Shown one piece after another: positions 43,501 through 46,500 of a DNA stretch of 52,139 bases (position 1 is the stretch's first letter; each line of letters opens with the position of its first letter). The position numbers are program-made. The stretch is from Escherichia coli. Its GTDB lineage: Bacteria; Pseudomonadota; Gammaproteobacteria; Enterobacterales; Enterobacteriaceae. Where the stretch lies: NCBI RefSeq assembly GCF_003334405.1, contig NZ_QOWM01000022.1; one strand, given 5' to 3'.

Positions 43501-46500
43501 TTCGGGTACGGGATTATCCCATCACTCTGGATAAGCTGCTCGATAAGCTGCCGGATGTGGTTTAAGGAGGAACAATGTCATACCCGCTTTTTGACAAAGA
43601 CGAACACTGGCATAAGCCAGAGCAGGCGTTTCTCACCGATGACCACCGGACCATTCTGCGCTTCGCCGTAGAGGCGCTAATGTCCGGTAAAGGAGCGGTG
43701 CTGGTGACGCTGGTGGAGATACGCGGCGGCGCGGCGCGCCCGCTCGGGGCGCAGATGGTGGTGCGCGAAGATGGTCGTTACTGCGGTTTTGTCTCTGGCG
43801 GCTGCGTGGAGGCCGCTGCCGCTTTTGAAGCGCTGGAGATGATGGGCTCAGGCCGCGATCGCGAAATTCGCTATGGCGAAGGTTCGCCGTGGTTTGACAT
43901 CGTTCTGCCCTGCGGCGGTGGGATCACGCTGACGCTCCATAAACTACGCTCGGCACAGCCTCTGCTCGCCGTGCTGAACCGCCTGGAACAGAGAAAACCG
44001 GTGGGGCTGCGCTACGATCCGCAAGCACAATCGCTGGTGTGCCTGCCCACGCAAACCCGGACGGGCTGGAATCTCAATGGCTTTGAGGTGGGGTTCAGGC
44101 CATGCGTCAGGCTGATGATTTACGGACGTTCTCTTGAGGCGCAGGCAACCGCGAGTCTTGCAGCAGCCACAGGCTATGACAGCCATATCTTCGATCTTTT
44201 TCCGGCCTCAGCCAGCGCTCAGATCGATACCGATACGGCGGTCATTTTGCTGTGCCATGATCTCAACCGGGAGCTGCCAGTGTTGCAGGCCGCGCGAGAA
44301 GCAAAACCCTTTTATCTCGGCGCATTGGGCAGCTATCGAACCCACACGTTACGTCTGCAAAAGCTCCACGAGCTGGGATGGTCCAGGGAGGAAACAACGC
44401 AAATCCGGGCACCCGTCGGGATATTCCCCAAAGCCCGGGATGCGCATACTCTGGCACTCTCCGTGCTGGCAGAAGTCGCCTCTGTACGTCTCCATCAGGA
44501 GGAGGATTCATGCCTGCCCCCGTCGTCCTGATCCTTGCGGCCGGGCGTGGAGAGCGCTTTCTCGCCTCCGGGGGAAATACCCATAAGTGTATCGGCTGGC
44601 GTCAGTCCCCGGAGGTTGCGCCTTATCGCTGGCCATTTGAAGAAAACGGGAGAACTTTCGACCTTGCGATTGAACCGCAGATTACGACTAATGATCTGCG
44701 TCTGATGTTGAGGCTGGCTCTTGCCGGCGGAGGAATAACAATTGCCACTCAGGAAACTTTCAGGCCATATATTGAAAGCGGTAAGCTTGTATCGCTGCTT
44801 GATGACTTTCTTCCACAATTTCCGGGCTTCTATCTGTATTTCCCACAGCGTCGCAATATTGCACCAAAGCTCCGCGCCCTGATTGACTACGTCAAAGAAT
44901 GGCGGCAGCAATTGGCTTAAATGTCTGCACCTGCACTGCCTGATGTCAGAACAGTATTTTGATGAATTGCCAAGGTTACAATGGCACAAATACGGCACAG
45001 GAGGAAACGTGGTGTATTTAAATATGGGGTAACTCTTTGATTTTAATGGTGCCGATAATAGGAGTCGAACCTACGACCTTCGCATTACGAATTATAAGAA
45101 TCCGTTTCTAATTCAAAGTATTACCCCATCAACACTGCGCTCACACGTCCCACCACATCAAAACATGTAAAGCCTTGCAAGCCATTGTGAGGCCTTATGT
45201 GTCTCAGTTTTGTCCCACCTTGTATTATGACTTGCATAGCCAATGAAGATAAATGTGACGACAAACGGCGCAGCAGTCTTCTTTTCCTTCATACTTTCCC
45301 CACCCAGCATGCATACCTTCTACCATAACTGTAGTTAATGTCTGTTATGAGCGAGGAGCGGACATTGCTAACAGCGTTCTGTGCGAATCAAGCAGGTCAG
45401 TCAAATAATTTATCGTCTGCCTCATAAGTTTCCTGAAACGTGAGGCTATTTGCATTAGGAACTGGATCATCTGCGTGTTGAATAATGGTTTGGCTTTTTA
45501 AAATGCTTTGCTTGAAAAAGCGTTTGCAAATTATCTCACCGTTAACTGGAAGCCAATGCGTGGCCTCTGGAAATAGCGTAGAATTTATAGGGTTTTCCGC
45601 GTTTGGGTTATGAAAAATTTCAATTTCTGAAGTCCATGGCTCATAACTATAGGGTTCCCAAAGACGACGATATTGGTCACTGGCTACATCCATACTGAAG
45701 GGGATGCCACGTAAGGCTCCCGCCGAGTCATTAGCGAACTCACCAATCCTTATGTACCGGTAGCCTTTGATCAAGGCGCCGGAAGAAACAGGTACTCTGC
45801 TCAGCTTGGATAAAGTCGCAGAATTAGAAAAAATAACCGCCGAGAGAGCAATGTTATCGTGTGAATTAAACAAACCAGCACGGATTTTGGGGTCGCTTTT
45901 GAGGCAGTCGACAGTTTCTGCTACAGCCACAACCTTCCCATCTATTTCTTTTTCTCTTCCATAAAATCCATAGAGATAGGTAATTAGAGCCTCACGGCTC
46001 CACATCATTGAACCGGGAGCGTGAAAGTCCGCGATAGCAATGGCAAACGGCTTTCCTTCGACATGAGTGAGACTAGTGTAATTCTTGCGCAGTTTATTCC
46101 TTAGGGTCCGCGCATAACGTTCAGCCGCAATTCCCGATACCCTGTCTTGTCGGTTTAAAGGAAACGTCAGAGGTTCAGCCCTGGCATGGTCGTAACGGTC
46201 CGATGGATTAACTGTCACAGCTTCAATCCAGGCTTCTCCACCTGACCTGTTTATTACGTGAAAATCAGGAGAGGGGTACTCCTGAGTGACTAACAACCCC
46301 TGTTCACGGAAACTGGCCAGGAGCATGGCTTCCCAAATACGTGTATGAAAGTTATCAGTCTGGCACTCTCTTGCCCAGTGAGTATCCGGATTTGGCATTG
46401 CAAGATACAATTGATTAAGCATCCATGCGCCAGGTGCTCTACAAGGATGTCCAAGTAGTTTGAATATGTTACTTGGTTGTCTACCTTCAACATCCCAAAG

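What the first reader, a model, noticed from the sequence alone, without database searches (positions are those of the whole stretch)
45047..45091. 45-nt tRNA-Thr 3-prime fragment as the integration scar
The minus strand carries the anticodon-loop-to-CCA half of a thrW-type tRNA-Thr, while the sequence where the 5-prime half should be is unrelated. This is the signature of a direct repeat left by site-specific integration into a tRNA gene. It places the island boundary within a few bases of 45091 and identifies the yagP-like LysR remnant at 44534..44920 as core-side DNA, possibly truncated by an older event.
Basis: partly seen in the sequence, partly recalled or inferred. Interest (0 to 1): 0.4.

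Follow-up and report, generated by a model that had tools for sequence, protein, structure and literature searches.

The report
Prophage attR scar in thrW
The short tRNA-Thr piece is the displaced end of the E. coli thrW gene, left where a lambda-like prophage integrated; this is a well-known, ordinary kind of prophage boundary marker.

Summary
Confirmed and ordinary. Window 45047..45092 (minus strand) is identical, 46 of 46, to the last 46 nt of E. coli thrW tRNA-Thr(CGU), from the anticodon loop to CCA. No tRNA is predicted there, and the 30 nt where the 5' half should be are unrelated.

Joining the window's left flank and fragment to the thrW 5' half and proA flank rebuilds an unoccupied site. 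That site occurs at 100% identity in ATCC 8739, and 948 of 5426 complete E. coli genomes carry it over at least 80% of its length.

K-12, where the same scar is named ptwF at the CP4-6 end, matches the window up to 45092 and diverges from 45093.

The 46-mer equals the annotated 46-bp attP core of Shigella phages SfI, SfIV and SfV. The next 122 nt match their attP arm at 120/122. In the closest genomes a 99% SfIV-type integrase sits beside intact thrW, 11.7 or 44.6 kb further right and outside this window.

So the fragment is attR of a lambdoid prophage. The island lies to the right and carries defence genes followed by tail-fibre genes. The pao genes and the yagP remnant are core DNA. The yagP truncation is also present in unoccupied genomes, so it is an independent event.

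Already known; low interest.

The parts
44582..44920 (+). yagP-like LysR remnant. Only the C-terminal ~110 aa of a ~300-aa regulator are present. This is core-side DNA.
   Evidence: PGAP pseudogene 'missing N-terminus' at the same place in PSJ-23, VTB97585v and the unoccupied ATCC 8739. NCBIfam LysR models align only at profile positions ~186-292 of 293. Homology to full-length LysR proteins starts at CIGW.
44921..45046 (.). B' arm: host DNA that lies directly downstream of thrW in unoccupied genomes.
   Evidence: Identical to ATCC 8739 from 44061 through 45092 and identical to K-12. The 10 nt next to the core, and 6 more nt after a 2-nt gap, also match the phage P' arm.
45030..45042 (-). Perfect match to the IHF consensus WATCAANNNNTTR, 4 nt downstream of the CCA end. 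Candidate H' site.
   Evidence: One of only 2 perfect matches in the 52-kb window. Its function is inferred, not tested.
45047..45092 (-). 46-nt att core: the displaced 3' part of thrW tRNA-Thr(CGU), nt 31-76 (anticodon loop to CCA).
   Evidence: 46/46 identical to thrW. Unique in the window. Equals the 46-bp 'attP core' annotated in phage SfI. Not a tRNA by ARAGORN or Rfam.
45093..45214 (.). P arm of the prophage att site and first island-side DNA. In Sf phages this arm leads to gtrA.
   Evidence: 120/122 identical to SfIV attP, then diverges. 95-97% identity to SfI, SfII, SfIV and SfV over 45029..45217. K-12 and ATCC 8739 differ from 45093 on.
45110..45129 (.). Right arm of a 20-nt inverted repeat whose left arm is 45024..45043. 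The two arms bracket the core. The right arm carries an IHF-like site with one mismatch to the consensus.
   Evidence: the repeat finder I1: 85% complementary, 66 nt between the arms. A fold of 45015-45140 closes a 16-bp helix, z -2.6/-3.0.
45158..45365 (.). Module shared with lambdoid phages (phage 21 and lambda-like phages, 89% identity). Many E. coli genomes share the window sequence up to about here, after which the cargo differs.
   Evidence: query 238-445 of 44921-45400. (matches ending at window ~45362-45390, followed by different annotated genes).
45397..46815 (-). Cargo gene related to the defence candidates PD-T7-1 and PD-T7-5.
   Evidence: PADLOC 2.8e-69 and 2.6e-35. PHROG 8571. No Pfam or NCBIfam hit.
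46920..47390 (-). Cargo ORF of 156 aa with no recognisable family.
   Evidence: No hit in NCBIfam, PADLOC, PHROGs or Pfam. Annotated as hypothetical in PSJ-23.
47893..49107 (+). Type II restriction endonuclease.
   Evidence: PADLOC REase_II 1.9e-234. PGAP annotation in PSJ-23.
49142..50617 (-). Dcm-type DNA cytosine-5 methyltransferase, partner of the endonuclease.
   Evidence: NCBIfam PRK10458 at 927 bits, above the cutoff of 710. PADLOC MTase_II 4.2e-230.
50982..51755 (+). GIY-YIG protein matching the defence candidate PD-T4-3.
   Evidence: PADLOC PD-T4-3 7.6e-140 over the full length. PGAP 'LEM-3-like GIY-YIG domain'.
51825..52139 (-). 3' part of a phage tail-fibre assembly gene. It runs off the window and marks the start of the prophage structural genes.
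   Evidence: PHROG 105 tail fiber assembly 2.6e-50. Annotated tfa, followed by a full lambda-like tail and head gene set, in VTB97585v.

Best explanation
The 46-nt segment at 45047..45092 is the core of attR (P-O-B') of a lambdoid prophage, or prophage remnant, integrated into the E. coli thrW gene.

The phage's tyrosine integrase is of the type carried by the Shigella serotype-converting phages SfI, SfII, SfIV and SfV. It recombined a 46-bp phage attP core, identical to thrW nt 31-76, with the chromosomal gene. The phage copy of those 46 nt now completes a functional thrW next to int at the far end (attL), outside this window. The original 3' part of thrW, still joined to its native downstream DNA (44921..45046, then the yagP remnant and paoDCBA), was displaced to this end.

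Everything from 45093 rightwards is prophage DNA: first the P arm, then a cargo slot that here holds defence genes instead of the gtr genes of the Sf phages, then tail-fibre genes.

Shown: the sequence identities, the unoccupied site, the breakpoint, the attP match and the integrase in relatives.

Inferred: that strand exchange occurs at the anticodon-loop end of the core, that the flanking IHF-like sites are used, and that the window's own genome carries int-thrW at the other end.
For: - 46/46 identity to thrW and uniqueness in the window. No tRNA is called.
- The rebuilt unoccupied site is found at 100%/100% in ATCC 8739 and others, and at >=80% coverage in 948 of 5426 genomes. In ATCC 8739 the gene order is paoD, yagP remnant, thrW, proA, and its sequence is identical to the window from 44061 to 45092. 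The E. coli W genome paper independently lists thrW as unoccupied in strain Crooks and as occupied by CP4-6 in K-12 (PMC3032704); equating Crooks with ATCC 8739 is my own recollection.
- K-12 is identical up to 45092 and different from 45093 on.
- Phage attP sequences of SfI, SfII, SfIV and SfV match 45029..45217 at 95-97%. The P arm is 120/122 identical to SfIV. The SfI record annotates the same 46 bp as the attP core. PMC3851460 reports a 46-bp att site, identical in SfI, SfIV and SfV, at both prophage ends.
- In PSJ-23 (100% identical to the window over 43500-47500, and identical over 45093 to ~51827) the island ends 11.7 kb further on with an integrase 370/372 identical to SfIV Int, transcribed towards intact thrW.
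- In VTB97585v (99.7% identical over all of 45093-52139) the island is a 44.6-kb lambda-like prophage ending in int-thrW.
- 588 of 5426 genomes carry this same B'-core-P junction.
- GC content is 54.7% on the core side and 43.9% on the island side.
Against: - The window does not contain the other end, so the presence of int and intact thrW in this particular genome is extrapolated from relatives. Those relatives differ among themselves (12-kb remnant versus 44.6-kb prophage) and from the window at one edge or the other.
- The cargo next to attR is not the gtr cluster of the Sf phages, so the element is a mosaic relative and not one of those phages.
- The GC drop starts already within the yagP remnant (44600-45000), so base composition alone would not place the boundary.
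- No experiment shows that this prophage can still excise.
Confidence: 0.95

Rival explanations
1. It is the right end of a CP4-6-type cryptic element, as in E. coli K-12, where the same scar is called ptwF and sits next to intF.
For: The chromosomal position, B' flank and core sequence are the same as in K-12. ptwF is a named K-12 gene (PMC13170351). The K-12 record places the CP4-6 end just past intF at this junction.
Against: K-12 and the window diverge completely from 45093. K-12 keeps 49 nt of thrW and continues into the intF upstream region, whereas the window keeps 46 nt and continues into the Sf-type P arm. No intF-like gene follows in the window.
Confidence: 0.02
2. It is a tRNA pseudogene produced without site-specific integration, for example by a local duplication of thrW later truncated by a deletion or an IS element.
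For: A truncated gene (yagP) lies next door, and IS elements do interrupt this region in some strains.
Against: The break coincides to the base with the end of a phage attP core. The adjacent 122 nt are phage P arm. The unoccupied site is restored exactly by removing the DNA between the two repeats. No IS end abuts 45093.
Confidence: 0.02
3. It is a chance resemblance, or a functional or partly functional tRNA-like gene.
For: None beyond the similarity itself. A weak Rfam tRNA alignment of 15.1 bits, E = 2.2, exists.
Against: 46/46 identity, with 0 of 100 shuffles giving any match even at 3 mismatches. ARAGORN predicts no tRNA. The acceptor 5' strand, the D arm and the 5' strand of the anticodon stem are absent. 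The fragment alone folds no better than shuffles, z = -0.10.
Confidence: 0.01

Closest known systems
attR of the Shigella flexneri serotype-converting phages SfI, SfII, SfIV and SfV (thrW-integrating lambdoid phages)
   Same: The 46-bp core is identical (PMC3851460). The P arm is 120/122 identical to SfIV. The layout is the same: int next to regenerated thrW at one end, and the cargo slot next to the displaced fragment at the other (PMC3306764). The integrase in the closest genome is 99% identical to SfIV Int.
   Different: The cargo next to attR is a set of defence genes (PD-T7-1-like gene, an unknown ORF, a type II RM system, PD-T4-3), not gtrA-gtrB-gtr(type). The tail module in the best-matching full prophage is lambda-like (J, Lom, tail fibre, tfa). 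The host flank is yagP/pao in E. coli, whereas it is reported as yaiC in S. flexneri.
ptwF, the thrW 3' fragment at the right end of cryptic prophage CP4-6 in E. coli K-12
   Same: It is the same chromosomal scar: identical B' flank, yagP remnant and tRNA 3' sequence. Both mark the distal end of DNA inserted at thrW.
   Different: K-12 retains 49 nt of thrW and is followed by intF and CP4-6 DNA. The window retains 46 nt and is followed by an Sf-type P arm. A different integrase family and a different element made each junction.
Phage P22 attP/attB in Salmonella thrW
   Same: Same target gene, and the same lambdoid arrangement with attP just downstream of int. P22-like phages are listed as thrW integrators in PMC2629481. 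Salmonella phages match part of 44921-45400; 109 of the 150 matching phage records of all hosts fall in the 80-90% identity band.
   Different: P22 sequence was not aligned in detail here. The statement that P22 attP has IHF sites on both arms rests on my recollection of Leong et al. 1985 and Smith-Mungo et al. 1994, which I could not read.
Islander-type tDNA islands (a regenerated tRNA gene plus a displaced 3' fragment marks the island ends; anticodon-centred attP class 'A')
   Same: This is exactly the principle described in PMC4383910. Of 3919 islands, 3760 have a 3' tDNA fragment and 2083 have anticodon-centred sites. Here the identity block starts at the base before the anticodon loop and runs to CCA.
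   Different: Nothing essential; this is a textbook case.

Membership tests
tDNA-integrated island or prophage boundary (displaced 3' tDNA fragment) | The fragment is identical or nearly identical to the 3' part of a tRNA gene of the same genome. | tested here: met
   46/46 identical to thrW of PSJ-23 and ATCC 8739. The window's own thrW is outside the window.
tDNA-integrated island or prophage boundary (displaced 3' tDNA fragment) | An intact copy of that tRNA gene lies in direct orientation at the other end, with a tyrosine integrase inside the element. | tested here: met
   Met in the two closest genomes: PSJ-23 (int 32133-33251, thrW 33266-33341 of L001) and VTB97585v. It cannot be tested for the window's own genome because the window ends 7 kb into the element.
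tDNA-integrated island or prophage boundary (displaced 3' tDNA fragment) | An unoccupied site exists in related genomes and equals the left flank, one repeat and the right flank. | tested here: met
   The 582-nt reconstruction is found at 100% identity and 100% coverage, and in 948 of 5426 genomes at >=80% coverage. ATCC 8739 annotation and base-by-base check.
SfI/SfII/SfIV/SfV-type att module | A 46-bp core identical to the phage attP core. | tested here: met
   PMC3851460.
SfI/SfII/SfIV/SfV-type att module | The arm sequence next to the core is homologous to the phage P arm. | tested here: met
   120/122 identical to SfIV over 45093..45214; 95-97% to four Sf phages.
SfI/SfII/SfIV/SfV-type att module | The cognate integrase is present. 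| tested here: met
   370/372 identity between the PSJ-23 integrase and SfIV Int. The gene is outside the window, so for this genome it is inferred.
Shigella serotype-converting phage (as a whole phage type) | A gtrA-gtrB-gtr(type) O-antigen modification cluster lies next to attP/attR. | tested here: not met
   The window has defence genes at that position. Sf phages have gtrA starting ~77 nt after the end of the shared P arm. The att/int module is therefore shared, but the element is not an Sf serotype-converting phage.
CP4-6 (K-12) element | Island-side sequence and the intF integrase lie next to the fragment. | tested here: not met
   The sequences diverge at 45093, and the identity block is 49 nt in K-12 versus 46 nt here.
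Functional tRNA gene | A complete cloverleaf recognised by tRNA finders. | tested here: not met
   ARAGORN finds 0 genes in the window. Rfam tRNA scores 15.1 bits against a gathering score of 29.

The most novel reading that the evidence does not exclude
The 20-nt inverted repeat that brackets the core only in the integrated state could be a functional element of its own. Its left arm (45024-45043) is host B' DNA and its right arm (45110-45129) is phage P-arm DNA. It might be a paired architectural-protein site that sets excision efficiency, or an RNA hairpin that insulates or processes transcripts crossing the prophage end. In the same spirit, the unannotatable 156-aa ORF (46920..47390) next to the PD-T7-1-like gene could be a new defence component in a variable cargo slot beside attR.
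Probability: 0.08. Interest if true: 0.3.

Novelty: already known. Interest (0 to 1): 0.08.

Why it matters
The practical value is for annotation. The scar fixes the prophage/core boundary to the base (45092/45093). It shows that the pao genes and the yagP remnant are chromosomal backbone, and it identifies the element to the right as a thrW-integrating lambdoid prophage with an Sf-type int/att module. That in turn flags the 6.4-kb stretch beside attR as a phage cargo slot, filled here with defence genes. None of this changes current understanding: thrW is a classical integration hotspot (P22, Sf phages, CP4-6), and displaced 3' tDNA fragments are the standard marker used by tools such as Islander.

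Tried and rejected
- I tested whether the window is the K-12 CP4-6 junction. It is rejected: the sequences diverge from 45093.
- I looked for additional thrW fragments in the window that would indicate tandem elements. None was found, even with 3 mismatches allowed. Tandem arrays do exist in other strains: VTB97585v has a 17-nt fragment, a P4-like satellite, the 46-nt fragment and then the prophage.
- I suspected that the first 26 codons of the yagP ORF (ATG at 44510, overlapping the paoD stop) are the N-terminus of a MocA/MobA-like nucleotidyltransferase. A PDB sequence search gave only noise. The large protein search returned only LysR relatives plus E. coli ORFs in which the same 26 residues continue into unrelated sequence. 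The idea remains unsupported.
- Base composition as a boundary marker is only roughly useful, because the GC drop begins inside the yagP remnant.
- The promoter/terminator scan gave nothing above shuffle expectation that bears on the finding.
- The Rfam 'mir-1012' hit (17.1 bits, E = 1.4) is an artefact of the inverted repeat.
- Technical failures: searches were not sent because the queue was full; both were repeated later. Williams 2002 (PMC100330) is not held. One search was a script path error, fixed.

Full report
**The observation.** The plus strand of 45047..45092 is TGGTGCCGATAATAGGAGTCGAACCTACGACCTTCGCATTACGAAT. Its reverse complement is 46/46 identical to nt 31-76 of thrW, the single tRNA-Thr(CGU) gene, as found in the near-identical genome PSJ-23 (L001 33266..33341; ARAGORN: tRNA-Thr, anticodon CGT at position 34). 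The fragment therefore begins with the last base of the 5' strand of the anticodon stem, contains the whole anticodon loop, and runs to the CCA end. The 46-mer and its 25-nt 3' part occur once in the window even with three mismatches allowed, and no shuffle produced a match. ARAGORN predicts no tRNA in the whole window, and the Rfam tRNA model reaches only 15.1 bits against a threshold of 29. The 30 nt where the 5' half should be match thrW nt 1-30 at 6/30.

**Which side is island: the unoccupied site.** I joined window 44800-45092 to the thrW 5' part and proA-side flank of PSJ-23 and searched all complete E. coli genomes. The 582-nt construct is present at 100% identity and 100% coverage in ATCC 8739 and many others. 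948 of 5426 genomes carry it over at least 80% of its length. In ATCC 8739 the annotated order is paoC, paoD, LysR pseudogene (missing N-terminus), tRNA-Thr, proA. The window is identical to that genome from 44061 through 45092, after which ATCC 8739 continues with the rest of thrW and the window does not. The E. coli W genome paper independently lists thrW as empty in strains W, B and Crooks and as occupied by CP4-6 in K-12 (PMC3032704); that Crooks is ATCC 8739 is my own recollection. So DNA up to 45092 is chromosomal backbone and DNA from 45093 is inserted.

**Comparison with K-12.** MG1655 is identical to the window from yagP through 45092 and unrelated from 45093 on. K-12 keeps 49 nt of thrW and continues into the upstream region of intF, inside the annotated CP4-6 prophage, whose end lies at this junction. 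This scar in K-12 is the named gene ptwF (PMC13170351). Two different elements thus made junctions at the same host position, and the strain-specific DNA starts exactly where tRNA identity ends.

**What the inserted element is.**
- A search of phage genomes with 44921-45400 found SfI, SfII, SfIV and SfV matching 45029..45217 at 95-97%.
- In those phages the order is xis, int, core, about 200 bp, gtrA, gtrB, gtr(type). The SfI record annotates exactly these 46 bp as the attP core.
- PMC3851460 reports a 46-bp att site, identical in SfI, SfIV and SfV, at both ends of the SfIV prophage. PMC3306764 describes integration into thrW downstream of proA, with int and the gtr genes at opposite prophage ends, and tandem integration at the regenerated site.
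- Base by base, 45093..45214 is 120/122 identical to the SfIV P arm and then diverges.
- On the other side, the 10 nt adjacent to the core are identical between the host B' arm and the phage P' arm. After two mismatches, six more nt are identical.
- In PSJ-23 (100% identical to the window over 43500-47500, and identical over 45093 to about 51827) the insertion ends 11.7 kb further right. There an integrase 370/372 identical to SfIV Int is transcribed towards intact thrW, whose 3' flank is the phage P' arm.
- In VTB97585v, the only complete genome matching all of 45093-52139 (99.7%), the insertion is a 44.6-kb lambda-like prophage. It carries tfa, tail fibre, lom, J, tape measure, capsid, portal, terminase, lysis, Q, cro/cI-like, xis-like and int genes, followed by thrW and proA.
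- The window ends inside the tfa gene (PHROG 105, 2.6e-50).
- 588 of 5426 genomes have the same B'-core-P junction.

**Mechanism.** Shown: the two att junctions in relatives together recapitulate the Sf-type attP, and removing the DNA between the two 46-nt repeats gives the natural empty site. It follows from the established mechanism of tyrosine integrases at tRNA genes (PMC4383910) that the phage attP core recombined with thrW. The phage copy of nt 31-76 now completes the functional gene beside int (attL, B-O-P'). The original 3' part, still attached to its native downstream DNA, was displaced to this end (attR, P-O-B'). Inferred, not shown: strand exchange takes place at the anticodon-loop end of the core. 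This corresponds to the 'anticodon-centred' class of PMC4383910 and, from memory, of Williams 2002, which I could not read.

**The inverted repeat around the core.** A 20-nt inverted repeat (45024-45043 and 45110-45129, 17/20 complementary) brackets the core. The left arm contains one of only two perfect IHF consensus matches in the window, 4 nt beyond CCA. The right arm contains a one-mismatch version. I read these as the H' and H sites known from my recollection of P22-type att sites, but this was not tested. The overall count of IHF motifs in the window is not above chance.

**The yagP remnant.** LysR family models align only with their last ~107 positions (186-292 of 293). Homology to full-length relatives begins at CIGW, near 44588, and PGAP starts the pseudogene at 44582. 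The same truncated pseudogene, of the same length, is present in the unoccupied ATCC 8739 and in K-12. The truncation is therefore shared by strains whatever occupies thrW, and it is not a consequence of this prophage. What the truncating event was remains open. My MocA-like idea for the 26 upstream codons found no support.

**Cargo next to attR.** After the P arm, and a 45158-45365 module shared at 89% with phage 21 and lambda-like phages, the window carries:
- a PD-T7-1/PD-T7-5-like gene;
- a 156-aa ORF with no family;
- a type II restriction endonuclease with a Dcm-type methyltransferase;
- a PD-T4-3 GIY-YIG gene.

Other E. coli genomes share the sequence up to about 45365-45390 and then carry different genes, for example AbiTii plus DUF6650, or an AAA ATPase. 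This is the position that holds the gtr genes in the Sf phages.

**Comparison with known systems and verdict.**
- The feature meets every testable criterion of a displaced-tDNA-fragment prophage boundary and of the Sf-type att module.
- It fails the criterion of being an Sf serotype-converting phage, because there are no gtr genes.
- It fails the criterion of being CP4-6, because the island side is different.
- It is the same chromosomal scar as K-12 ptwF, made by a different element.
- The kind of feature, the target gene, the 46-bp core and even the locus are all already described.
- Interest is low (0.08). The residual unexplained item is the host/phage inverted repeat around the core.

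Noticed in passing
window 45397..51755: The slot between the attR P arm and the tail-fibre genes holds a defence-gene cluster: a PD-T7-1/PD-T7-5-like ORF (45397..46815, minus), a 156-aa ORF with no detectable family (46920..47390, minus), a type II REase (47893..49107, plus) with a Dcm-type MTase (49142..50617, minus), and a PD-T4-3 GIY-YIG gene (50982..51755, plus). Other E. coli genomes carry different genes after ~45365-45390 (AbiTii plus DUF6650, or an AAA ATPase), so this looks like a variable cargo hotspot.
   Followed up: partly
window 45397..46815 (minus): The ORF is 472 aa from its first ATG, but PGAP annotates only 341 aa in PSJ-23. 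The PADLOC PD-T7-1 profile (452 positions) aligns with residues 113-446, so the true start is uncertain.
   Followed up: no
window 38491..38690 and 51868..52066 (both minus): Both Rfam 'IS009' sRNA hits appear to be tail-fibre assembly (tfa) coding sequence. The second hit lies inside the prophage tfa gene (PHROG 105, 2.6e-50). The first, between ykgJ and yagU, aligns with it over ~110 nt and looks like a tfa remnant. The Rfam family may therefore describe a phage gene fragment rather than an sRNA.
   Followed up: partly
window 45024..45043 and 45110..45129: A 20-nt inverted repeat (17/20) brackets the att core. The left arm is host DNA (also present in empty sites) and the right arm is phage P arm, so the pair exists only in lysogens. 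Each arm carries an IHF-consensus-like motif. A fold closes a 16-bp helix, z about -3.
   Followed up: partly
window 44510..44920 (plus) and 39728..44531: The closest non-E. coli relatives of the yagP LysR remnant (70-74% identity) come from alpha- and beta-proteobacteria (Paracoccus, Rhizobiaceae, Mesorhizobium, Burkholderia). The paoC-paoD stretch profiled (42000-44600) is 56-63% GC, which suggests an old horizontal acquisition of this 'core' block. The 26 codons upstream of the LysR part (ATG at 44510, overlapping the paoD stop) continue into unrelated sequence in other E. coli ORFs (P0113-P0119).
   Followed up: partly
L006 (VTB97585v) ~3551..3567 and 19955..20000; L008 17683..17758: This strain has a tandem array at thrW: yagP flank, a 17-nt thrW 3' fragment (with one deletion), a P4-like satellite (primase, Icd-like gene, AAA ATPase plus DUF4435, IS3-split integrase), the 46-nt fragment, a 44.6-kb lambdoid prophage, int, and thrW. 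Together with the 49-nt K-12 fragment, this shows at least three identity-block lengths (17, 46 and 49 nt) at thrW, consistent with several distinct integrases using different parts of one tRNA gene.
   Followed up: partly
window 45080..45095 (plus): The antisense of the thrW anticodon arm mimics the tRNA-Arg2 anticodon loop (UUACGAA). The K-12 ptwF antisense RNA is listed among TadA-dependent A-to-I editing sites, although that site could not be validated by Sanger sequencing (PMC13170351). K-12 keeps 4 stem base pairs (49-nt fragment). The window's 46-nt fragment keeps only one, so this hairpin is probably lost here.
   Followed up: no
L001 16229..16918 (PSJ-23) vs window 39728..40417: paoA is annotated as a pseudogene with an internal stop in PSJ-23, whereas the window has an uninterrupted 229-aa ORF at the corresponding place.
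   Followed up: no
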